Source: Candidatus Woesearchaeota archaeon
GTDB taxonomy: Archaea; Nanobdellota; Nanobdellia; Woesearchaeales; JABMPP01
DNA: 64,000 bases
Assembly (NCBI GenBank): GCA_018303405.1
Contig: JAGVYD010000011.1
Location: 15,257 to 79,256, forward strand
Direction of reading: 5' to 3'
Part shown: positions 6,669-63,062 of the stretch, in pieces
How the letters are laid out: every line of letters starts with the position of its first letter
Numbering within the stretch: the first letter of the stretch is position 1
The notes under the pieces: model-generated
Told to the model about the DNA's origin: nothing
Database searches by the model: none
Seen by the model: only the letters and a program-made list of their open reading frames with translations
Made by a program: the position numbers and the translations under genes

Positions 6669-7637
6669 ATGGCTTCAAATGTGATAAAATATATAAATAA
6701 TGCCCTGCTTTTGGATGGCATGAAAAAAGAGATGGCACTGGCTTCTGTTCTGGCTACAGCTGTTATCAGCGGCTTTGCCATATTTGCCAATAAATTTGGA
6801 GTTACAGGAATCAATAGTTCAGTTTATACCTTTGCCAGGCTAATCATTGTGGCTGCCTTTATGTTTGCAACCATCTTTTTTTTGGGCAATTTCTCACAAT
6901 TGAAAAAGCTTTCACGTAAGCAATGGCTGTCATTGGCCGCGGTCGGGCTGGTCGGCGGGTCCATCCCATTTTTACTGTTCTTTCGCGGGCTTCAGCTTGT
7001 ATCAGGCCCTGCAGGGTCGTTTATCCAGAAGACAATGTTCATTTTTGTGGCAATTGTTGCAGTGGCATTCCTCAAGGAAAAATTAAACCTTGGTATGATA
7101 GTCGGCGGGATTCTGCTTCTCGCTGGCAATTTCATCTTCCTGCAATTATGGACACAGGATTTTGCATGGGGCACAGGCCACACCTTGGTCCTGATTGCCA
7201 CTCTGTTCTGGGCAGTCGAGAACACCTATTCAAAGTATTTGCTCAGAAACATGCCTGGCAATGTGCTTGCATTCGGGCGAATGTCCTTTGGCTCACTATT
7301 CATATTGGTTTATCTGGCCTTTACTGGCGAGATTGCCCTTATGGCATCCTTAACCCAAGACCAAATGTTGTGGATTCTTGCAACTTCAGTCATATTGTTT
7401 GGCTATGTCCTAACCTGGTACAATGGATTAAAAGACCTAAGCGTCACAGCCGCGACCAGCATACTATTGCTGGGCTCGCCAATCACAACAGCACTAAATC
7501 ATTTTTTTTCAGATGCAGCTATTATTCCCGCACAAATCCTGGGCACGGTCATGATCCTGGCAGGGATTATTATAATGCTGGTCATTGCGGAAAAAATCAC
7601 TCTGCCATTTCAACAGCAAAGCCGTGATGTATCCTGA
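6669..7637 (+). CDS. EamA/DMT-superfamily transporter
   Basis: 322 aa with about 10 TM helices in two homologous halves, typical of drug/metabolite transporter family proteins. Confidence 0.65.
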   Translation: MASNVIKYINNALLLDGMKKEMALASVLATAVISGFAIFANKFGVTGINSSVYTFARLIIVAAFMFATIFFLGNFSQLKKLSRKQWLSLAAVGLVGGSIPFLLFFRGLQLVSGPAGSFIQKTMFIFVAIVAVAFLKEKLNLGMIVGGILLLAGNFIFLQLWTQDFAWGTGHTLVLIATLFWAVENTYSKYLLRNMPGNVLAFGRMSFGSLFILVYLAFTGEIALMASLTQDQMLWILATSVILFGYVLTWYNGLKDLSVTAATSILLLGSPITTALNHFFSDAAIIPAQILGTVMILAGIIIMLVIAEKITLPFQQQSRDVS

Positions 7638-8106
7638 CCTTGTCGCCTTTCTTGGCGCCAGGCACATAGAATGAACCTACAACCCTTGTTTTTCCCCTGC
7701 CGTATTTCACAATGAAGAAATCATCCCTTTTCTCGATTATCTCTGCCGTGTGCACCTTGCACAGTTCCCTGAAAACATTTGGCGCGATTGCATAAGAGCC
7801 ATCGCCCGCTTCAATCATGGCGTTGTGCCTGTTGTGAAAATATTCTCTGATTACCTTCAAATCCCAATGGCTCCTGATGCCCATGCTTTCAGCCACGCGA
7901 TCCATCCTTTCAAATGCCTTCCTATATGTGCTTTCCAGAAGCTTCCTTCCAACTTTTCTGTTGTGCATGGCAGCGTTTTCCAGCGCCCTGAATGTCCTGT
8001 CATTTATCTCCCCGCGCTGCTTAATAACATAGGTGCACGGGAATGCGTACCTAAGAAAATAGCTTTCAACTGACACTGCCTTGGGCAGCTTAGCAGGCTT
8101 TGCCAC
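7597..8106 (-). CDS. Hypothetical protein adjacent to hypC
   Basis: 169 aa with no recognised domain. The C-terminal segment GDKVRIHHGFAVEM is reminiscent of the HypC OB-fold tail (GDYVLVHVGFAIE), but there is no MC N-terminus. Convergent overlap of 41 nt with the EamA gene. Confidence 0.3.
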   Translation of the reverse strand: MAKPAKLPKAVSVESYFLRYAFPCTYVIKQRGEINDRTFRALENAAMHNRKVGRKLLESTYRKAFERMDRVAESMGIRSHWDLKVIREYFHNRHNAMIEAGDGSYAIAPNVFRELCKVHTAEIIEKRDDFFIVKYGRGKTRVVGSFYVPGAKKGDKVRIHHGFAVEMAE

Positions 8107-8302
8107 TATGGATCATCTCCAGCCATCTCTCAGCTGCTTTTTTGTTGACTTTCTCAATCACGATTCGGCCCTGCACAATAACATAATCGCCTGGCCTGTA
8201 TTTCCTCTCCACAATTTTTGCCTTTCTTTTTTCAGTGTCGTAATCTATGGTTGCCATGTCTTTGCTGATCTTCAGGATTTTTCCAGGATAGGCCAGGCAC
8301 AT
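8090..8302 (-). CDS. hypC: Hydrogenase maturation factor HypC
   Basis: 70 aa starting MCLAYPGKI, the MCLAIP signature of HypC/HupF. Confidence 0.85.
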   Translation of the reverse strand: MCLAYPGKILKISKDMATIDYDTEKRKAKIVERKYRPGDYVIVQGRIVIEKVNKKAAERWLEMIHSGKAC

Positions 8303-8655
8303 CAGTTTTTCACCTTTTTTGCTTTTTTTACGGTTACCTGCCTTATCCTTATATCCCCACCTTCATAAAGTTTTGGGACTTTTCCGCATTTTTCGCAGAC
8401 ATAAAGGCAGAATTCATGCCCCCTTTCAAGCACTTTTGGATGGCCTGAATGGCCACAGTTGCATTTTGCCTTTGCTTTTATCTCCTTTATCTTTATTTTC
8501 CACTTTGTAAGCGTTTCAAGAATTTCCCTTAGTTCATGGTCATGTATCGGGCCAAGTTCTCCAACGTCGAGGATGATTGACTCTATTTCCCCACCTTTTC
8601 CGGCTTTTTTCTGCGCATCATCAATTATTCTTCTTGCAATGACAGTTTCGTGCAT
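8302..8655 (-). CDS. hypA: Hydrogenase nickel-incorporation protein HypA
   Basis: 117 aa starting MHE. Two CxxC pairs (CNCGH...CEKCG) forming the HypA zinc site. Confidence 0.85.
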   Translation of the reverse strand: MHETVIARRIIDDAQKKAGKGGEIESIILDVGELGPIHDHELREILETLTKWKIKIKEIKAKAKCNCGHSGHPKVLERGHEFCLYVCEKCGKVPKLYEGGDIRIRQVTVKKAKKVKN

Positions 8656-8671
8656 TTTCTTTTGCCTCTTT

Positions 8672-8950
8672 TTATATTATCTCTTTACTTGATTTTAATT
8701 GTAACGTGCCAACGATGAGAATGAGTTGTTGCCAATTTCTAAGCTCTTTTGGAATGACAAGTTCTTTTCCAATTGTTGATTTATCAATCTTATTTAATAA
8801 GCCTAATCTTCTAGTTTCTAAATCTAGCTCTTTTTCTGTTTTAGCTTTCCTAACTCTATCTGCAGTTTCTATCCTGCCATGAGAAACCTTTGTTTTTGTA
8901 ACAGAGTCACTTAGGTTTTTGTCTTTGATGTATTTCTGTTCATTTGACAT
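8672..8950 (-). CDS. Small hypothetical protein (possible AbrB/MazE-like DNA-binding fold)
   Basis: 92 aa encoded in a markedly AT-rich stretch. The C-terminal VIPKELRNW weakly resembles the swapped-hairpin IPKEIR motif. Weak call. Confidence 0.2.
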   Translation of the reverse strand: MSNEQKYIKDKNLSDSVTKTKVSHGRIETADRVRKAKTEKELDLETRRLGLLNKIDKSTIGKELVIPKELRNWQQLILIVGTLQLKSSKEII

Positions 8951-9143
8951 GATTCACTCTCCACTGGACATGTCGTCGTGAAGTATTTAAAGCTTTTCTC
9001 TCTATATTTGTCAAAAAGAGAACACGCAAAACTGCCAAATTAATCTTTTCGATTTCATCGAAAATCTTTTACGCAGTTTCGCTATACATTCCTTTTTTTC
9101 AGGCTCCAAAGTTTAAAAAAATGAAAACTTTGGAGGTGTAAAA

Positions 9144-10058
9144 GTGCCAACAACAAACGAAATAGTGAAAATTTATACAAAAATACACTCTATTAGGGCA
9201 GTTTCCCGGCAGACTCACATTTCGAGGACAAAAATTAGGAAAATTCTTATTGAAACCGGAATCAGAATTCCAGATAGCAGAACGGCCCAACTGGCTGTAG
9301 GTTATATCCAAGAAAAGAAGAAGTTCTGCCTTTCTCCTCAAGAAAAAGCCTATTTATACGGGTTAGTGATGGGTGATCTAACTCCTATCCTGAAATCTAA
9401 ATATACTTTAAAACTTATCACAACTTCTACTCATAAAACTTTCATGGAAATGCTATGTAAAACTTTTAAAAAATACGGGATAACTAATCATAAGGAAACT
9501 AAAAATAAAAATACGTTTAGGTTTCAAAGTCACATTGATCTGGAAAGTTTTTTATTTCTATTGGATACAAAAAACAAATGTATGCCTACTTGGATAAAGG
9601 CTCATAACTTTTACAATTTCCTTGGCGGGTTTATAGACTCTGATGGCAGTATTATTGTTAGGAAATCTGGCAATTACTTTCAATATGTTATTAGATTTTT
9701 TAGTCAGAATCTGGACCTTCTGCTTGAAATAAAAAGTAAACTGAAATCCATTGGATATCATCTTTCCATACACAAAAGTCATTCTAAGGGCCACATTAGT
9801 TATCATAAAAACGTAAAGTTTCAATACAACAGGAATTATTATACTCTTGAAACCTACAAAAAGGAAGAAACTTTAGATTTACTGGGAAAGATACCTATTA
9901 GACACCCCGAAAAAATTGCAAAAAAGAACCTGATATTTGATATTTATCGTCGAAAACTTGTATTGTGGAAAGATATTGAAAATCAAGTCAAAGAATTAAG
10001 AGAAAAAATAAGACAATCAGTAATACAAAGAAAGGCACTATCATCCCCAATATGTTAA
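9144..10058 (+). CDS. Free-standing LAGLIDADG homing endonuclease with N-terminal HTH domain
   Basis: 304 aa with two LAGLIDADG motifs (LYGLVMGDLTP and FLGGFIDSDGSIIV). N-terminal about 45 aa looks like a helix-turn-helix. Encoded in AT-rich DNA. The 3' end overlaps the 3' end of rtcB by 71 nt on the opposite strand. Confidence 0.8.
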   Translation: MPTTNEIVKIYTKIHSIRAVSRQTHISRTKIRKILIETGIRIPDSRTAQLAVGYIQEKKKFCLSPQEKAYLYGLVMGDLTPILKSKYTLKLITTSTHKTFMEMLCKTFKKYGITNHKETKNKNTFRFQSHIDLESFLFLLDTKNKCMPTWIKAHNFYNFLGGFIDSDGSIIVRKSGNYFQYVIRFFSQNLDLLLEIKSKLKSIGYHLSIHKSHSKGHISYHKNVKFQYNRNYYTLETYKKEETLDLLGKIPIRHPEKIAKKNLIFDIYRRKLVLWKDIENQVKELREKIRQSVIQRKALSSPIC

Positions 10059-11511
10059 CGGTGCCTTTAATATTCCCAATCGGCTTCAACCCAACTACAG
10101 CCTTGGAAATCCCGCTTTCTTCAACTGCCTCAACAACATCAGAAATATTCTTGTAGGCGAATCCTGCTTCCTCGGCCAGGCCTGACATTGAGGCAGCCTT
10201 AACATAAATCCCCCTTGCTTCCATGTCTTTCTGCAGCTTGTCTCCGCGGATGTCATGCTTTGCCTTTGCCCTGGACATTGTCCTGCCTGACCCGTGGCAT
10301 GTGCTGCCGAAAGTCTCTTCCATTGCCTTGTCGGTCCCGACAAGAAGGTATGAGCCTGTTTCCATGCTTCCTCCTATGATGACGGGCTGGCCTACTTTCC
10401 TGTAAGCAGGAATCAGTTCGGCATTTCCCGGCCCGAAGCTCCTGGTCGAGCCTTTCCTGTGTATAACCAACTTTTTCTTTTTTCCATCAACCTTGTATTC
10501 CTCAACTTTTGCAATGTTATGCGCGACATCATAGACAAGGTTCATTCCCATTTCCTCGTCTGACCTTCCAAAAACCTGGGAAAACCCCTTCCTGACCTGG
10601 TGCATTATTATCTGCCTGTTCGCAAACGCCATGTTTGCTGCGCAAGTCATGGCTGCAAAATAATCCTTGCCTTCCTTGCTGTTGAATGGCGCGCATGCAA
10701 GCTGCCTGTCCTTGACGGTTATATCATATTTTTTCATTGCATCCTCAAAAGTGTGCAAATAATCTGTCGCAACCTGATGCCCAAATCCCCTGCTGCCGCA
10801 ATGAATCATTATCACAACCTGGCCATCCTGGTCAATGCCAAAAGCCTTGGCTGTTTTTAAGTCGTAGATGCTGTTCTTATATGCCACCTGGATTTCCAGG
10901 TAATGGTTGCCGCTCCCCAATGTGCCAAGCTGGTTCATTCCTCTTGAATATGCCTTATCGCTGATTTTAGCCGGGTCAGCGCCCTTAATCGCGCCCTTCT
11001 CCTCTATCCTGTCTGTGTCCTCTTTCCAGCCGTAGCCATTGTCGACGCACCATTTTGCGCCGTCCACAATGACTTCCTTGAACTGCTGCTTGTTCAATCT
11101 CAAAAAACCCTTGCCGCCCACTCCCACTGGAACGATTTTGAACAATGTATCAACCAGCAGCTTTAATTTTGGCTTGACTTCATCATATGTCAAATTCGTG
11201 CGGATTAAGCGCATGCCACAATTTATGTCAAAGCCAATCCCTCCCGGGGATATTATCCCCTCATCCAGGTCAAATGCCGCAACACCGCCTATCGGGAAGC
11301 CATAGCCCCAGTGGCCGTCAGGCATGCACAAAGCAGCTTTCTGTATTCCTGGAAGGCATGCAACATTTGTAATCTGGTCATACACTCCCTCATCCATGCC
11401 TTTCATCAATTTGTCTGTCGCATAGATCCGGGCAGGAACATTCATGCCCTCTTTGTATGTTACCGGTATTTCCCAGACGCCCTTTCCAATGTTTTTAATG
11501 CCAGTTGCCAT
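9988..11511 (-). CDS. rtcB: tRNA-splicing ligase RtcB
   Basis: 507 aa with conserved RtcB blocks (CLPDGHWGYGFPIGG, GFDINCGMRL, HNHA-like region). Carries an unusual 24-aa hydrophobic C-terminal extension encoded antisense to the homing endonuclease. Confidence 0.9.
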   Translation of the reverse strand: MATGIKNIGKGVWEIPVTYKEGMNVPARIYATDKLMKGMDEGVYDQITNVACLPGIQKAALCMPDGHWGYGFPIGGVAAFDLDEGIISPGGIGFDINCGMRLIRTNLTYDEVKPKLKLLVDTLFKIVPVGVGGKGFLRLNKQQFKEVIVDGAKWCVDNGYGWKEDTDRIEEKGAIKGADPAKISDKAYSRGMNQLGTLGSGNHYLEIQVAYKNSIYDLKTAKAFGIDQDGQVVIMIHCGSRGFGHQVATDYLHTFEDAMKKYDITVKDRQLACAPFNSKEGKDYFAAMTCAANMAFANRQIIMHQVRKGFSQVFGRSDEEMGMNLVYDVAHNIAKVEEYKVDGKKKKLVIHRKGSTRSFGPGNAELIPAYRKVGQPVIIGGSMETGSYLLVGTDKAMEETFGSTCHGSGRTMSRAKAKHDIRGDKLQKDMEARGIYVKAASMSGLAEEAGFAYKNISDVVEAVEESGISKAVVGLKPIGNIKGTVNILGMIVPFFVLLIVLFFLLIL

Positions 11512-59836: not shown

Positions 59837-59886
59837 TTGGCACGGAAGGCAGGGAGACGCTCGCTTTGCTCGGTCTCCCGAACTGC
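59837..59886 (+). repeat. 50-bp hairpin repeat, copy 1
   Basis: ttggcacggaaggcagggagacgctcgctttgctcggtctcccgaactgc. Identical to copy 2 and contains the GGGAGAC...GTCTCCC inverted repeat. Confidence 0.8.
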
Positions 59887-59933
59887 ATTTCTTAGGTAAG
59901 ATTTATAATGCGTCATTAAATCCAATATACTGT

Positions 59934-59950
59934 GCCGCGGTCGCTTAGCC
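59934..59950 (+). other. Duplicated 5' fragment of tRNA-Ser (17-19 nt) with its own TATA-like box
   Basis: GCCGCGGTCGCTTAGCC is identical to positions 1-17 of the tRNA-Ser at 60124. Preceded by gatttataatg at about -30, which looks like an archaeal TATA box. The sequence diverges after TAGCC. Confidence 0.6.
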
Positions 59951-59964
59951 ACAACTGGCCTCAG

Positions 59965-60014
59965 TTGGCACGGAAGGCAGGGAGACGCTCGCTTTGCTCG
60001 GTCTCCCGAACTGC
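59965..60014 (+). repeat. 50-bp hairpin repeat, copy 2
   Basis: Perfect 50/50 identity with 59837-59886. A third, diverged copy (GCACGGAAGcCgGGGAGAC...GTCTCCCGAACcGC) lies on the minus strand at 1202-1250. Confidence 0.8.
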
Positions 60015-60123
60015 GACTATCGGCAATAGGGACGGGAATCAATAGCGATTATAACTTTAAAATTACATCGCGTCGGGGAATTTTATGTTCCCCCCGTTTT
60101 TACCAGATTTTTGTTAAAAATCT

Positions 60124-60253
60124 GCCGCGGTCGCTTAGCCCGGTATAGCGCTGGATTGCTAGATACTGTATAACTAGTGTCTTAGAAACCTACTATACCA
60201 TGCAGACATCCAGTGTCCGCAAGGACTCGGGAGTTCAAATCTCCCCCGCGGCG
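60124..60253 (+). tRNA. tRNA-Ser (anticodon GCU) with 46-nt intron at canonical 37/38 position
   Basis: Manual fold: acceptor GCCGCGG/CCGCGGC, D-arm, anticodon stem CTGGA/TCCAG with loop TTGCTA-[intron 60162-60207]-A, long variable arm (GTCC GCAA GGAC), T-arm GGGAG TTCAAAT CTCCC, discriminator G. Oligo-T tract follows. Confidence 0.8.
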
Positions 60254-60290
60254 CTTTTCTTATTTTATAAGGAAGTGAAACGCCAAAAAA

Positions 60291-60560
60291 TTAGTCCTTT
60301 CCCATAAATTTACCAATATACTCCATTATTTTCTCTTTCTTTTCAATATTTATTGAAACATGCTTTCCATAGCCTGTCTTTTTCAAGTACAAAATCCCCT
60401 CTTTAATCAATTCTTCAGAGATTTCCTTAACTCTCCCTTTCAAATCGGGAGGAAAGCTCTTTGCAAGATTCTCAAAGGCAGTGTGGCTATGTTCAAACTT
60501 CCCTTTGCGCGTAAGCTTGTGCAAAATCTTTCCTTTAATCTGTGAATCATTCCACGTCAT
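60291..60560 (-). CDS. Small hypothetical protein (possible winged-helix)
   Basis: 89 aa in AT-rich DNA just 3' of tRNA-Ser. Weak wH-like pattern (GILYLKKTGYGKHVSIN). Confidence 0.25.
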   Translation of the reverse strand: MTWNDSQIKGKILHKLTRKGKFEHSHTAFENLAKSFPPDLKGRVKEISEELIKEGILYLKKTGYGKHVSINIEKKEKIMEYIGKFMGKD

Positions 60561-60632
60561 AAGTCCACCAGAATAGACTTTGAAAGGTTAAATTTATATA
60601 CTTTTCTGTTTATTCAATATCAAGGTAAAAAA

Positions 60633-60962
60633 ATGGAAGAAAAATCGTTATTGCTTAATTTGACGGGAGACTTGCCTTTATTTAGAATAATTGATTTTCT
60701 GCTTGAAAACAAAGGGATGGACTACAGCAAGACAGACATCGCCAAGGGTGCAGGGATTTCAAGGGCATCTTTGTTCAATTACTGGATAGAATTGGAAAAA
60801 CACAGGCTGATAAAAACAACAAGAAGCTTTGGCAAGACAAAGCTGTATACCCTAAACGTTAGCAATCCAATTACACAAAGGATTATTGAGCTTGAGAAAA
60901 CATTGATAAGCGAAGCCATGAACAAAGCTGTGAAGAAAAAAGAAATTTTGGTTGAAAATTGA
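60633..60962 (+). CDS. Winged helix-turn-helix transcriptional regulator, putative
   Basis: 109 aa. DIAKGAGISRASLFNYWIELEKHRLIKTTRSFGKTKLYTL is a typical HTH recognition helix plus wing. Confidence 0.5.
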   Translation: MEEKSLLLNLTGDLPLFRIIDFLLENKGMDYSKTDIAKGAGISRASLFNYWIELEKHRLIKTTRSFGKTKLYTLNVSNPITQRIIELEKTLISEAMNKAVKKKEILVEN

Positions 60963-60996
60963 GTTATTTTTCTGAAACCTTTATTTTTATATATCT

Positions 60997-61587
60997 CTAT
61001 TCTTGTTTGTCAATTTCCCATTCAATTTCTGGATAATGCCTTGGCTTAATTTTCTTGATATTTTTTAATACATACTTTTTGAGTTCTTCCCCATTTTCCT
61101 TTGAATAAGCCCGTACGTTTCCATAAAAGAAATAACTTCCTTTTTGACTCTTGACAATAAGTGCACTGATATAATCATTTACCTTCAGCAAGTTTGGAAA
61201 ATCAATTGTTTTAATTAAGTACTTTTTACTATCTATTACATTCTTAATTAGATAATCTTTTCTGTTAATATGCACAACTTGAAAAAGCGAGTCATTGTAT
61301 TCAACAAAGTTTCTTATAATCTTTCGGTCATTTTTTGTAAAGAAGTCAAGAGGGAATAGCAGTGCATATTCCATTGGCGTTGCGCCCTTAATTTTTCTTT
61401 GAAGCAGAAAATATGATAAGAATCCACTATAATAGGTTGTATCATCTTTTGCTGACTGTGCCTCTTGTGTTGCCTGAAACTCTTTGTTCGCTTTTTGTAA
61501 CTCTTTAGGGTGCAGATTGTTTATGAAACCAAGCACTTTTCTAATCACTTTTGTTTCTGGCTGTATTTTACCCCTTGTCATAATCAA
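60997..61587 (-). CDS. Hypothetical protein (196 aa), third gene of AT-rich cassette
   Basis: About 30 percent GC. Overlaps the upstream gene by 20 nt. No motif recognised. Confidence 0.3.
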   Translation of the reverse strand: MIMTRGKIQPETKVIRKVLGFINNLHPKELQKANKEFQATQEAQSAKDDTTYYSGFLSYFLLQRKIKGATPMEYALLFPLDFFTKNDRKIIRNFVEYNDSLFQVVHINRKDYLIKNVIDSKKYLIKTIDFPNLLKVNDYISALIVKSQKGSYFFYGNVRAYSKENGEELKKYVLKNIKKIKPRHYPEIEWEIDKQE

Positions 61588-61951
61588 AGCCCATTTTCTC
61601 CAAATCTATTCTCAAATACTTTTCCTGCAGGTCATAAACAGTATTATACAAATAATCATTATCCCATTTTGTAAAAATCCCGATATTTTTATGAATACTT
61701 TCTATTAGTTCCATTGGTTTGAGTGATGGCATTGTCATAAAGAAAAAGAAGAAAATTTTATCGTATATCTTTATTGTCACATCAATAAGCTTATATTTTA
61801 CAGAAATAGCTTTTAAAGCATTTCTTAGCCCTTCTTTTTCCTGTATTGTTTCATCATTCATAGTTTTATGACAGTAGAAATATCCTCCTTGGTGCACTGA
61901 GTGGCTGAATTTGTATAATTTTCTTCCTCTTTTATCAACTTCAATCTTCAT
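61568..61951 (-). CDS. Hypothetical protein (127 aa), second gene of AT-rich cassette
   Basis: Translationally coupled to flanking genes (4-nt and 20-nt overlaps). No motif recognised. Confidence 0.3.
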   Translation of the reverse strand: MKIEVDKRGRKLYKFSHSVHQGGYFYCHKTMNDETIQEKEGLRNALKAISVKYKLIDVTIKIYDKIFFFFFMTMPSLKPMELIESIHKNIGIFTKWDNDYLYNTVYDLQEKYLRIDLEKMGFDYDKG

Positions 61952-62229
61952 CTTACATCCAGCCCTTTCATTTTCTTCAGCTTGCTCTGGGGGTTAAATG
62001 TCCAGAGCACTTTATCATCGGAGAAGACTATTTTTCCGCTATATGCCAGATAATCCAATATTGCAATCACTGTCTGATGCATCACCTGCTTTGGCAGCTT
62101 TCTTTTCAATTCAGCAACCGATATCAGACTATCAGCTTTTTGCAGAGTATCCTCTACCATAAGAACTGTATTTAAGGTGGGGCTTCTTTGTTCTGCATAG
62201 TTCCTTGTCTTTAAGGTTATTGTTTGCAT
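61948..62229 (-). CDS. Hypothetical protein (93 aa), first gene of AT-rich cassette, possible wH domain
   Basis: ISVAELKRKLPKQVMHQTVIAILDYLAYSGKIV resembles a winged-helix recognition helix. Weak call. Confidence 0.3.
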   Translation of the reverse strand: MQTITLKTRNYAEQRSPTLNTVLMVEDTLQKADSLISVAELKRKLPKQVMHQTVIAILDYLAYSGKIVFSDDKVLWTFNPQSKLKKMKGLDVR

Positions 62230-62336
62230 ATCAACTGATATAATATCAACTGATATATAAACTTTTCTATTTTTATGTTAATTAAATCAGTGAGTTTAAT
62301 AAACAACTAGGCATTCTCAAGTAAAAAAGTGGTAAG

Positions 62337-62404
62337 AAAAGGGGGGGGGGCGTTATCATTGTTTATAAAGGAAAAAGATGATACCCCCCCGGCGTTCTAA
62401 CTCC
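62337..62404. other. Homopolymer G10 / C7 inverted repeat hairpin
   Basis: aaaaGGGGGGGGGGcg...43 nt...ataCCCCCCCggcg. The G-run at 62341-62350 and the C-run at 62394-62400 can pair. Intergenic between the AT-rich cassette and hicB. Confidence 0.6.
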
Positions 62405-62476
62405 AAGTCAGAAGACTACCACACTGCCTTTTCATCTTGAAATATGCAAAAATATATAAATTCATGAGCTATTTGG

Positions 62477-62707
62477 GTGACCATGCCAAAAACATTTCAC
62501 GTCCTTATCGAGCAAGACGAAGATGGAGTTTACACAGGCAAGGTGCCAGAGCTCCGGGGCTGCCTCAGCCAGGGAGACACCCTAGATGAGCTCATGAAAA
62601 ACATCAAGGAAGCGATTGAGCTATGCCTCGAGGTCCAATCTGAGAAAAACCAGAAGCTTAGCCAGGACAATATCAGATTTGTGGGTGTGCAGCAGCTCGA
62701 GGTGTGA
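62477..62707 (+). CDS. hicB: HicB-family antitoxin
   Basis: 76 aa. FHVLIEQDEDGVYTGKVPELRGCLSQGDTLDELMKNIKEAIELCLE matches the HicB/UPF0150 consensus. Confidence 0.75.
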   Translation: MTMPKTFHVLIEQDEDGVYTGKVPELRGCLSQGDTLDELMKNIKEAIELCLEVQSEKNQKLSQDNIRFVGVQQLEV

Positions 62708-62710
62708 GCC

Positions 62711-62935
62711 TTGAAGCTGCCGCTGCTTTCTTCCAGGGAACTCTGCAAATTCCTTGAAAAAGAAGGATTCAAGGCGGAAAGACAGAAGGGCAGCCACAGA
62801 TTTTACAAGCATGCGGACGGAAGAAGCACAGTTGTCCCTGTTCATGCAAACAAGGATATCAGCAGGGGATTGCTTAAGGCAATCCTTGAAGAAATTGGGA
62901 TGGAAAGGGAAGAATTCTTCAGAAAACTAAAATAG
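62711..62935 (+). CDS. hicA: HicA-family toxin (mRNA interferase)
   Basis: 74 aa. LLSSRELCKFLEKEGFKAERQKGSHRFYKH...TVVPVH matches HicA/YcfA with the catalytic GSH motif. Confidence 0.75.
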   Translation: MKLPLLSSRELCKFLEKEGFKAERQKGSHRFYKHADGRSTVVPVHANKDISRGLLKAILEEIGMEREEFFRKLK

Positions 62936-63062
62936 GAATCTGCGCCTTCATGGCCTGATGTCCCCCCCTGGCGCTTTTATTTCTTCTTTTTGCCATAGGG
63001 ATTGCTTTTCCAAAATTGGGCTGTTGTTTTTGGTTATAGGAGCCTTTATATAAGATGTTCAC

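What the first reader, a model, noticed from the sequence alone, without database searches (positions are those of the whole stretch)
60291..62229. AT-rich three-gene cassette of unknown function next to tRNA-Ser, HicAB and regulators: candidate mobile or defence island
Immediately 3' of tRNA-Ser the GC content drops to about 30 percent for about 2 kb. Three translationally coupled minus-strand genes (93, 127 and 196 aa, with 4-nt and 20-nt overlaps) have no recognisable domains. They are flanked by two small wHTH proteins, the G10/C7 hairpin, a HicB-HicA pair, an Lrp regulator and a Zn-ribbon protein. A tRNA-proximal, compositionally foreign, tightly coupled operon of orphans beside a toxin-antitoxin pair is the typical setting for an uncharacterised anti-phage or mobile-element module.
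Basis: inference. Interest (0 to 1): 0.6.

Follow-up and report, generated by a model that had tools for sequence, protein, structure and literature searches.

The report
Inserted cassette with a dead transposase relative
The AT-rich stretch is a roughly 2.2-kb, five-gene piece of foreign DNA inserted beside a serine tRNA gene of an uncultured groundwater archaeon, and its best-conserved gene encodes a previously undescribed relative of the IS200-type transposase that has lost its catalytic histidines but is still under strong selection.

Summary
Positions 60.3-62.4 kb are the lowest-GC stretch of the window (GC3 0.30-0.44 against 0.55±0.04 in host genes). They lie just 3' of an intron-containing tRNA-Ser(GCU), and the three minus-strand genes overlap by 4 and 14/20 nt.

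The unit is five genes, not three. A syntenic relative (L055) has tRNA-Ser followed directly by hicBA with no cassette. A third genotype (L057/L058) carries the same cassette start at the same tRNA. So this is an insertion, about 60275-62440. It contains no integrase and ends in a 10/11 copy of the tRNA 3' end.

The genes are not orphans:
- C (194 aa, DUF7986-like) is a helical domain plus an OB fold.
- A (93 aa) is probably an autorepressor. Its TATCAACTGATA palindrome recurs upstream of A homologues elsewhere.

The trio is not a conserved unit. B's partners vary and sit in toxin-antitoxin and restriction-modification-rich islands. "Mobile" is supported. "Defence" is guilt by association only.

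The parts
60124..60253 (+). tRNA-Ser(GCU) with a 48-nt intron; integration target
   Evidence: Rfam RF00005, 43.4 bits; the alignment shows anticodon GCU and a long variable arm. Exons are identical in L055, L057 and L058, while the introns differ.
60275..62440 (.). Inserted AT-rich cassette (approximate limits), five genes, no integrase
   Evidence: Absent from the syntenic relative L055, where the tRNA is followed after about 70 nt by hicB. Similarity to L055 stops about 20 nt after the tRNA end and resumes at the hicB promoter ATGCAAAAATAT. Lowest-GC 2 kb of the window.
60291..60560 (-). 89-aa small putative HTH protein (wH89)
   Evidence: ORF. Only sub-threshold Pfam hits. A 45%-identical homologue is paired with a wH109 homologue near B in L032, and a related gene lies directly upstream of B in L010/L039.
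60633..60962 (+). 109-aa HTH protein (wH109), divergent from wH89
   Evidence: Sub-threshold hits to HTH_IclR, Crp and TetR_N. Homologues near B in L010/L039 (31%) and L032 (40%).
60997..61581 (-). C: 194-aa DUF7986-type protein with an N-terminal six-helix domain and a C-terminal OB fold
61568..61951 (-). B: 127-aa IS200/IS605 TnpA-fold protein that lacks the HUH histidines (I66-F67-F68)
61948..62229 (-). A: 93-aa probable winged-helix autorepressor, first gene of the operon
   Evidence: Sub-threshold winged-helix hits. The same palindrome lies between a TATA box and the ATG of A homologues in L010 and, as a variant, in L021.
62229..62261 (-). Promoter and operator of the A-B-C operon: two TATCAACTGATA palindromes (62229-62240, 62244-62255) and a TATA box (minus-strand TTTATATA, 62254-62261) about 28 nt upstream of the ATG, implying a leaderless transcript
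   Evidence: Sequence. There are two exact copies and no other exact copy in 64 kb.
62341..62394 (+). G10/C7 hairpin whose 3' arm runs into a 10/11 direct copy of the tRNA 3' end (CCCCCCCGGCG, 62384-62394); candidate distal attachment-site remnant
   Evidence: An 11-mer with at most 1 mismatch is expected 0.35 times per window, and this one lies at the compositional boundary.
62963..62974 (+). Second degenerate direct copy of the tRNA 3' end (CCCCCCTGGCGC), just after hicA
   Evidence: The Lrp-like and Zn-ribbon genes that follow, and the next genes beyond the window end, have no counterpart next to hicA in L055, where the BKACE-like gene follows directly.
62477..62935 (+). hicB-hicA pair (context, outside the insert; adjacent to the tRNA in the relative)
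   Evidence: Pfam hits above the gathering score. 73.5% nucleotide identity to the L055 pair.

Best explanation
The AT-rich segment is a horizontally acquired, integrase-less five-gene cassette of about 2.2 kb. It is inserted at the 3' end of tRNA-Ser(GCU) in the Rifle groundwater archaeon GW2011_AR3 and is drawn from a low-GC DPANN gene pool.

Its A-B-C operon is read from a leaderless promoter. Gene A, a small winged-helix protein, most likely represses that promoter through two TATCAACTGATA palindromes that cover the TATA box and the start codon.

B is an exapted IS200/IS605-type Y1 transposase. It keeps the fold and is under strong purifying selection, but both metal-binding histidines of the HUH motif are replaced by I-F-F. 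It therefore most likely binds single-stranded or hairpin DNA without cutting it.

C is translationally coupled to B, with its ATG lying inside B's conserved ...DYDKG* codons. It supplies an OB-fold domain of the type that binds single-stranded DNA.

Across DPANN genomes B is a conserved hub with interchangeable coupled partners. These are C, a Zn-ribbon protein, PRiA4_ORF3, a YgjP-like protease, NUDIX and RQC+HTH_40, the last sometimes fused to B. I infer that B and its partner form a nucleic-acid-sensing or nucleic-acid-binding module used in conflicts with mobile DNA (anti-element, addiction or regulatory role).

Shown: the insertion, the fold and homology of B, the loss of HUH, the OB fold of C, the variable partners, and the operator motif.
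Inferred: DNA binding, B-C complex formation, and any conflict or defence role.
For: Insertion.
- L055 is syntenic on both sides: 705-aa protein 67%, PGM 57%, ABC2 84%, HicBA about 70-80% at the protein level.
- L055 has tRNA-Ser followed directly by hicB.
- L057/L058 have another upstream flank and another intron but a 99-100% identical tRNA 3' half and cassette start.
- A 10/11 copy of the tRNA 3' end lies at 62384-62394.
- GC3 is 0.30-0.44 against 0.549±0.043 in host genes.
- Independent case: in L039-41 a 1.43-kb module holding two HTH genes, B and a C remnant lies between gatA and gatB, flanked by a 14/16 repeat of the gatB start.

B.
- pLDDT 94.6.
- The B profile finds P0208, P0210, P0213, P0214, P0215 and P0220 at E 3e-12 to 3e-6.
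- Five of these pass the Y1_Tnp gathering score (27.3-40.9 bits against 23; P0213 is sub-threshold at 20.5).
- P0213, P0214, P0215 and P0220 show HFH/HVH aligned to I66-F67-F68.
- dN is 0.08-0.12 with dS at or above about 1, or saturated.
- Only 49 clusters at 50% identity exist among 1.84 billion representatives. Wherever a source names the organism it is Woese-, Nano- or Aenigm(at)archaeota or an unclassified archaeon, apart from seven third-party assemblies titled 'uncultured Methanosarcinales archaeon'.
- P0200 is a fusion of B with RQC and HTH_40.

C. pLDDT 89.2 and OB-fold matches.

Coupling. The partner's ATG lies inside B's GAT-TAT-GAT codons in most loci.

A. The palindrome recurs upstream of A homologues in L010 and L021.

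Context. Toxin-antitoxin pairs (HicAB, MNT/HEPN, PIN/MazE), type I and IIG restriction-modification genes, RhuM and PD-(D/E)XK nucleases occur near B or C.
Against: - No biochemical function is shown. OB folds and ferredoxin-like folds also occur in proteins that do not bind nucleic acids.
- Neither the trio nor the two HTH genes match any PADLOC model, and only a few neighbours of B elsewhere do.
- There is no integrase, and the repeats are short and imperfect (10/11 and 10/12). A 20-mer search allowing 3 mismatches finds only the tRNA itself.
- Only about 190 nt of the cassette is seen in the third genotype, because those contigs are short.
- L055 is a related species rather than a strain, so a deletion in its lineage cannot be formally excluded.
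- The closest known B sequences are saturated at synonymous sites, so no donor is identified.
- Direct hhalign of the B profile against a real TnpA is not significant.
- A possible equivalent of the catalytic Tyr (Y112) is conserved, so a non-canonical activity cannot be excluded.
Confidence: 0.55

Rival explanations
1. A toxin-antitoxin-like addiction module. B, or A together with B, is the conserved antitoxin or regulator, and the variable, translationally coupled downstream gene (here C) is the toxin or effector. This arrangement keeps the cassette in the genome.
For: - The genes are small, overlapping and apparently autoregulated.
- One conserved gene is paired with at least eight unrelated downstream partners.
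- Partners are often decayed while B stays intact: a C remnant in L010 and a pseudogene in L023.
- The loci lie among bona fide toxin-antitoxin pairs.
Against: - Neither B nor C matches any toxin or antitoxin family.
- C and its distant relatives also occur without B.
- An OB-fold protein is not a typical toxin.
- In L061 B is the partner that was lost while C stayed intact.
Confidence: 0.15
2. A bona fide anti-virus or anti-plasmid defence system of a new type. B senses single-stranded or hairpin DNA of invaders such as rolling-circle replicons or IS200/IS605 intermediates, and the interchangeable partners execute the response.
For: - The cassette is foreign DNA inserted next to a tRNA.
- The neighbourhoods are enriched in restriction-modification and toxin-antitoxin genes. 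C relatives lie between hsdS and hsdM, and a type IIG restriction-modification gene occupies B's slot in L061.
- The partner set includes a YgjP-like protease, PD-(D/E)XK nucleases and NUDIX.
- The hub-plus-variable-effector architecture is typical of conflict systems (established knowledge).
Against: - There is no match to known defence models.
- The AR3 trio itself contains no recognisable enzyme.
- Nothing related was found in IMG/VR, so no viral counterpart is known.
- The evidence is association only.
Confidence: 0.2
3. A decaying IS200/IS605-type insertion sequence. B is simply a dead transposase pseudogene remnant with no function.
For: B has the TnpA fold and has lost HUH. The cassette is an insertion.
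Against: - More than 100 clusters at 90% identity keep the same I/L-F-F substitution and about 35 invariant or nearly invariant positions.
- dN is far below dS.
- The family keeps a constant length and intact reading frames, and fusions to RQC-HTH_40 exist.
- There is no tnpB and no paired subterminal hairpins, and the window holds a single copy.
Confidence: 0.03
4. An ordinary, vertically inherited gene cluster of this lineage, AT-rich only because of the amino-acid composition of its proteins.
For: B genes are lower in GC than their surroundings in 25 of 27 genomes, and their GC2 is very low (0.22), which reflects composition rich in K, F, I, Y and N.
Against: - GC3 is also 0.30-0.44 against 0.55 in host genes.
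- The cassette is absent from a syntenic relative.
- The family is rare and its context is variable.
- A B module is inserted inside a gatCAB operon elsewhere.
Confidence: 0.04

Closest known systems
IS200/IS605 Y1 transposase TnpA (Pfam PF01797; structures 2vhg of ISHp608 and 2ec2 of Sulfolobus tokodaii)
   Different: - The HUH histidines are replaced by I-F-F throughout the family.
- The Y[IV]ENQ signature described for archaeal subclass 1.1 (PMC6006769) is absent.
- B does not itself reach the Pfam model.
- It is single-copy in the window, with no tnpB and no paired end hairpins.
- It sits in operons with unrelated small genes.
REP-associated tyrosine transposases (RAYT/TnpAREP; 4er8)
   Different: RAYTs keep HUH and Tyr, are active nucleases and are flanked by REP repeats, and those surveyed are bacterial. 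B lacks HUH, no REP-like repeat family was seen, and it occurs in DPANN-type archaea.
tRNA-integrated genomic islets of archaea and bacteria
   Same: The cassette abuts the tRNA 3' end and the tRNA is left intact. A partial direct copy of the tRNA 3' end lies at the far junction, the composition is foreign, and an empty site exists in a relative.
   Different: There is no integrase or other recombinase with catalytic motifs. The insert is only about 2.2 kb and the repeat is only 11 nt with one mismatch. A B module elsewhere is inserted at a non-tRNA site with a 16-nt repeat.
OB-fold single-strand-DNA binders (SSB/PriB, RPA, Stn1/Ten1, RecO N-domain)
   Different: There is no sequence similarity. 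C has a unique N-terminal six-helix domain, and DNA binding has not been tested.

Membership tests
IS200/IS605 Y1 transposase (TnpA, PF01797) | Y1/HUH-type ferredoxin-like fold with a C-terminal helix | tested here: met
IS200/IS605 Y1 transposase (TnpA, PF01797) | HUH metal-binding motif (DH[VI]H in archaeal subclass 1.1, PMC6006769) | tested here: not met
   I66-F67-F68 aligns with the HFH/HVH of Y1_Tnp-positive relatives. The F positions are nearly invariant in 108 sequences.
IS200/IS605 Y1 transposase (TnpA, PF01797) | Catalytic Tyr in the last helix (Y[IV]ENQ; Y127 in IS608, PMC3597680) | tested here: inconclusive
   Y112 (conserved in at least 90% of sequences) lies at the start of the last helix, but the Q is absent and alignments disagree on the register.
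IS200/IS605 Y1 transposase (TnpA, PF01797) | Reaches the Pfam gathering score | tested here: not met
   B has no Y1_Tnp hit even at E up to 1. Only distant relatives pass, at 27.3-40.9 bits against a cut-off of 23.
IS200/IS605 insertion sequence | Subterminal hairpins at both ends, multiple copies, frequent tnpB partner | tested here: not met
   There is one hairpin at one end only, one copy in the window, and no tnpB in any of the loci examined.
RAYT / REPtron | Active HUH plus Tyr, flanked by REP palindromes that are repeated in the genome | tested here: not met
   HUH is lost. No repeated palindrome family was found in the window or in other loci.
tRNA-integrated mobile island | Insertion at the tRNA 3' end, with an empty site in relatives | tested here: met
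   L055 lacks the cassette between tRNA-Ser and hicB. L057/L058 carry it in another genomic background.
tRNA-integrated mobile island | Direct repeat of the tRNA 3' end at the distal junction | tested here: inconclusive
   A 10/11 match lies at 62384-62394, where 0.35 matches are expected per window. A 20-mer allowing 3 mismatches finds only the tRNA itself.
tRNA-integrated mobile island | Element-encoded integrase or recombinase | tested here: not met
   None of the five genes has a recombinase domain.
Known anti-phage defence systems (PADLOC-DB 2.0) | Match to a defence protein model | tested here: not met
   There are no significant hits for A, B, C or the two HTH proteins.
Type II toxin-antitoxin module | Recognised toxin or antitoxin domains; growth arrest relieved by the partner | not testable with these tools
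   No toxin or antitoxin domain is present. Only the architecture (small, coupled, autoregulated genes) is compatible. Toxicity needs an experiment.
DUF7986 (PF25948) for protein C | Match to the Pfam model | tested here: inconclusive
   Nine homologues carry a precomputed PF25948 hit, marked weak in L038 and L059. The local Pfam scan returns nothing for them or for C.
OB-fold ssDNA-binding proteins (for C) | Five-stranded OB barrel | tested here: met
OB-fold ssDNA-binding proteins (for C) | Binds single-stranded nucleic acid | not testable with these tools
   Requires EMSA or a similar assay.

The most novel reading that the evidence does not exclude
B-family proteins are a new functional class derived from Y1 transposases. 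They would be HUH-less ssDNA- or hairpin-recognition subunits serving as the conserved core of a modular DPANN conflict system with swappable effectors. Alternatively, with a non-canonical chemistry or a helper enzyme, they would direct the insertion of small integrase-less cassettes that carry 11-16-nt copies of their target, as seen at the tRNA-Ser 3' end here and at the gatB start in L039.
Probability: 0.15. Interest if true: 0.8.

Novelty: new variant of a known kind. Interest (0 to 1): 0.55.

Why it matters
DPANN archaea have tiny genomes, and very little is known about their mobile elements or their defences. This locus gives a clean natural experiment, with filled and empty sites, for a small integrase-less cassette.

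It also reveals a tightly conserved family that reuses the IS200/IS605 transposase fold without its catalytic histidines. In the library I searched I found no description of such a family, and the broad Y1 survey (PMC6006769) explicitly set aside sequences lacking the core motifs as probably non-functional.

If B is a sequence- or structure-specific ssDNA binder with swappable partners, it would be a further example of transposase exaptation. It would also be a possible source of compact ssDNA-recognition modules. If it turns out to be an ordinary accessory regulator, the result still removes three 'orphans' from the unknown list.

Tried and rejected
- Direct family searches of A, B and C in Pfam, PADLOC, PHROGs and NCBIfam gave nothing above threshold.
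- Sequence searches against PDB chains with profiles of B and C and with A, wH89 and wH109 gave nothing meaningful.
- IMG/VR scans with the B and C profiles found no relatives, so there is no evidence of a viral origin.
- BFVD fold search with C gave only generic OB and S1 matches.
- The afdb50 fold library was unavailable.
- I tested whether the commonest downstream partner (the F3 family) is a diverged C. It is not: it is a Zn-ribbon plus helical protein.
- I tested whether B loci are generally next to tRNAs. They are not: 3 of 27 loci have a tRNA within 6 kb.
- I looked for G-run/C-run hairpins or REP-like repeats near B in other loci and found none.
- A 19-20-nt attachment-site search found only the tRNA itself at 3 or fewer mismatches. 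Only the 11-12-nt core recurs.
- A 9-nt inverted repeat CTTTTCTTA/TAAGAAAAG at the cassette ends was rejected as an element terminus, because CTTTTCTT is also present in the empty site.
- An exact-protein look-up of the flanking glycosyltransferase found no AR3 strain without the cassette. It found only contigs that break at the tRNA and repeat region.
- NCBI lists the host only as unclassified Archaea. Its placement among DPANN 'Woesearchaeota' is from memory of Castelle et al. 2015 and could not be checked.
Full report
**1. Source and observation**

Exact-sequence look-ups place the window on Rifle aquifer groundwater metagenome contigs. The five AT-rich genes are NCBI proteins KHO45328-KHO45332 of 'archaeon GW2011_AR3'. 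NCBI lists this organism only as unclassified Archaea. From memory it was assigned to the DPANN 'Woesearchaeota' by Castelle et al. 2015, which I could not check.

- GC drops to 0.30-0.36 over about 60.4-62.4 kb.
- Window 60301-62300 is the lowest-GC 2-kb stretch in the 64 kb (0.330 against a mean of 0.457, sd 0.033).
- Third-position GC of the five genes is 0.30-0.44, against 0.549±0.043 for 36 host genes.
- Rfam finds a tRNA at 60124-60253 with anticodon GCU, a long variable arm and a 48-nt intron. ARAGORN misses it.
- The three minus-strand ORFs and their overlaps (4 nt; 20 nt from TTG or 14 nt from ATG) are as described.
- HicB and HicA are confirmed. The 'Lrp' and 'Zn-ribbon' labels rest on sub-threshold hits.
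- No curated family threshold is reached by A, B or C in Pfam, PADLOC, PHROGs or NCBIfam.

**2. It is an insertion, and the unit is five genes**

A metagenome scan with the exact 3' end of the tRNA returned four contigs.

L055 (20.3 kb, GC 0.42) is a syntenic relative.
- Its 705-aa, PGM, small-gene, ABC-transporter, BKACE and HicBA genes match those of AR3 at 53-84% protein identity on both sides of the tRNA.
- There, tRNA-Ser is followed after about 70 nt by hicB, with no cassette.
- Similarity between AR3 and L055 stops about 20 nt past the tRNA and resumes at the hicB promoter ATGCAAAAATAT. This bounds the insert at roughly 60275-62440.

L057 and L058 are a third genotype.
- They have a different upstream flank and a different tRNA intron.
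- They have identical exons and a 99-100% identical continuation into the cassette. Only about 190 nt of the cassette is visible because these contigs are short.

At the distal junction the C-rich arm of the G10/C7 hairpin runs into CCCCCCCGGCG (62384-62394). This is a 10/11 direct copy of the tRNA 3' end, where 0.35 such matches are expected per window. A second degenerate copy follows hicA (62963-62974). The Lrp-like and Zn-ribbon genes beyond it, and the next genes past the window end, have no counterpart next to hicA in L055. Two same-strand hits within 2.8 kb of the tRNA have a chance probability of about 1e-3 by my estimate. The repeats are short, however, and a 20-mer search finds only the tRNA.

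None of the five genes is a recombinase. Every AR3-population contig I could retrieve either carries the cassette or breaks at the tRNA and repeat region.

**3. Gene B**

B has 118 relatives at E ≤ 0.01 in the clustered database, at 46-99% identity. Wherever a source names the organism it is Woese-, Nano- or Aenigm(at)archaeota or an unclassified archaeon. The exception is seven third-party assemblies titled 'uncultured Methanosarcinales archaeon', most of them of low GC, whose labels I treat with caution.

An exhaustive HMMER search of 1.84 billion representatives finds only 49 clusters. The family is therefore compact and rare rather than universal.

- The AlphaFold model is confident (pLDDT 94.6).
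- The weakest members found by the B profile (P0208, P0210, P0214, P0215, P0220; E 3e-12 to 3e-6) pass the Pfam gathering score for Y1_Tnp.
- In the alignment, P0213, P0214, P0215 and P0220 carry H-F-H or H-V-H exactly where B has I66-F67-F68.
- The phenylalanines are nearly invariant in 108 sequences.

B therefore belongs to the Y1 superfamily but has lost the HUH metal ligands that define its chemistry (PMC3597680, PMC6006769).

It is not a pseudogene. The closest pairs have dN 0.08-0.12 with dS at or above 1 or saturated. About 35 positions are invariant or nearly so, including Y106-D-L-Q-E and Y112. Whether Y112 corresponds to the catalytic tyrosine is unresolved.

**4. Gene C**

**5. Gene A and regulation**

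A has only sub-threshold winged-helix hits. Upstream, a TATA box (TTTATATA) lies about 28 nt from the ATG, which implies a leaderless mRNA. Two exact TATCAACTGATA palindromes cover the TATA box and the start codon, and there is no other exact copy in 64 kb.

The same palindrome lies between a TATA box and the ATG of the A homologue in L010 (41% identity). A variant, TATCAATTGAT, lies before the homologue in L021 (52% identity). This co-occurrence makes A the likely autorepressor.

**6. The trio is not a conserved unit; B is a hub**

In 27 species-level genome loci holding B:
- C is adjacent once, in L008.
- An A-like gene lies directly upstream once (L024). Others lie one gene away (L021) and 5.5 kb away (L010).
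- The two-HTH pair is nearby twice.
- B+C also occurs as a bare pair, in L059.

The co-directional gene coupled to B's 3' end varies. It can be a Zn-ribbon family (5 loci), PRiA4_ORF3 (5), a YgjP-like metallopeptidase (3), RQC+HTH_40 (3, and fused to B in P0200), NUDIX, or others. In most loci the partner starts at an ATG embedded in B's conserved ...D-Y-D-K-G* codons.

There are several signs of flux.
- A C remnant follows B in L010.
- L023 carries a pseudogenised copy of the L018 partner.
- In L061 a type IIG restriction-modification gene occupies B's slot and leaves only B's last codons in front of C.
- In L039-41 a 1.43-kb module holding two HTH genes, B and a C remnant sits between gatA and gatB. 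It is flanked by a 14/16 repeat of the gatB start.

Neighbourhoods are rich in toxin-antitoxin pairs (MNT/HEPN, PIN/MazE, HicAB), type I and IIG restriction-modification genes, RhuM, PD-(D/E)XK nucleases and SWIM proteins. Only a few neighbours match PADLOC models. tRNA adjacency is not general: 3 of 27 loci have a tRNA within 6 kb.

**7. Interpretation**

Shown:
- a foreign five-gene insertion at tRNA-Ser;
- a selected, HUH-less Y1-fold protein;
- a coupled OB-fold protein;
- a probable autorepressor with a conserved operator;
- combinatorial partners in variable islands.

Inferred: B binds ssDNA or hairpin DNA without cutting it and works with its partner. Here the partner is C. Elsewhere it includes RQC/HTH_40 DNA-binding domains, for which the fusion supports physical cooperation. 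The module would act in a conflict with mobile DNA, as an addiction element, or as a regulator.

Alternatives are a toxin-antitoxin-like module and a genuine new defence system. The readings as a decaying insertion sequence or as housekeeping genes are contradicted by the selection evidence and by the empty site. How the cassette moves is unknown.

**8. Novelty**

Domesticated Y1 transposases are known (RAYTs; PMC5581495, PMC6006769), but they keep HUH and Tyr. The broad survey PMC6006769 treated sequences without the core motifs as probably non-functional. I found no paper describing this family or DUF7986. I rate it a new variant of a known kind, of moderate interest.

Noticed in passing
window 59837-60140: An exact 18-nt copy of the 5' end of tRNA-Ser (TGCCGCGGTCGCTTAGCC) lies 190 nt upstream of the gene (59933-59950), behind a TATA-like TTTATAAT. 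A perfect 50-nt direct repeat occurs twice (59837-59886 and 59965-60014). Several assemblies break their contigs here (L048, L049). This suggests an older rearrangement or integration on the 5' side of the same tRNA.
   Followed up: partly
window 60124-60253; L055 3965-4113; L057 1681-1808; L058: The tRNA-Ser(GCU) exons are identical in three genotypes, but the introns differ completely, and L057/L058 have GCCGAGG instead of GCCGCGG at the 5' end. ARAGORN does not detect the gene.
   Followed up: partly
window 7600-10100: There is a second AT-rich patch (2-kb GC about 0.35). It holds HypC (8090-8302), HypA (8302-8655) and a free-standing LAGLIDADG_3 endonuclease-like ORF of 304 aa (9144-10058; 35.9 bits against a cut-off of 22.5), next to rtcB.
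   Followed up: partly
L039 6086-7541 (same arrangement in L010, L040, L041): A 1.43-kb module (wH109-like, wH89-like, B, and an N-terminal remnant of C) is inserted between gatA and gatB of a low-GC Woesearchaeote. It is flanked by TAATAAAGGATTTTAG and TAATGAAAGATTTTAG, and the second repeat contains the gatB start codon.
   Followed up: partly
L061 2076-5588 compared with L008 4291-6958: In two syntenic genomes (FTR1 ... C, RQC-HTH_40) the slot before C holds either a 283-aa HSDR_N-like protein plus B, or a 952-aa MmeI-type type IIG restriction-modification enzyme. In the second case a 36-aa ORF ending ...IGIDYEKN... looks like the tail of B.
   Followed up: partly
proteins P0213, P0214, P0215, P0220: The HUH-bearing relatives of B that pass Pfam Y1_Tnp appear to lack a tyrosine at the position of the catalytic Tyr (they have N, A, E/L or W there in the alignment). 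They may be a second non-canonical branch.
   Followed up: no
L038 1709-7182; L036 1455-5424: Distant C relatives without B sit in long arrays of overlapping small genes, one of them between hsdS and hsdM of a type I system, together with SEC-C-motif, NYN and DUF6036 proteins.
   Followed up: no
window 62936 to the window end, and beyond it (L001 6500-9000): The block after hicA (Lrp-like 185 aa, Zn-ribbon 86 aa, and ORFs of 39, 91 and 186 aa) has no counterpart next to hicA in the syntenic relative L055. The ABC-transporter and BKACE genes are also in a different order there, so the locus varies on both sides of hicBA.
   Followed up: partly
L008-L034 record titles: Seven B-containing MAGs, most of GC 0.29-0.43 (L033 is 0.55), are titled 'uncultured Methanosarcinales archaeon' in third-party assemblies. 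This looks like a placeholder or a mislabel given their gene content and composition.
   Followed up: no
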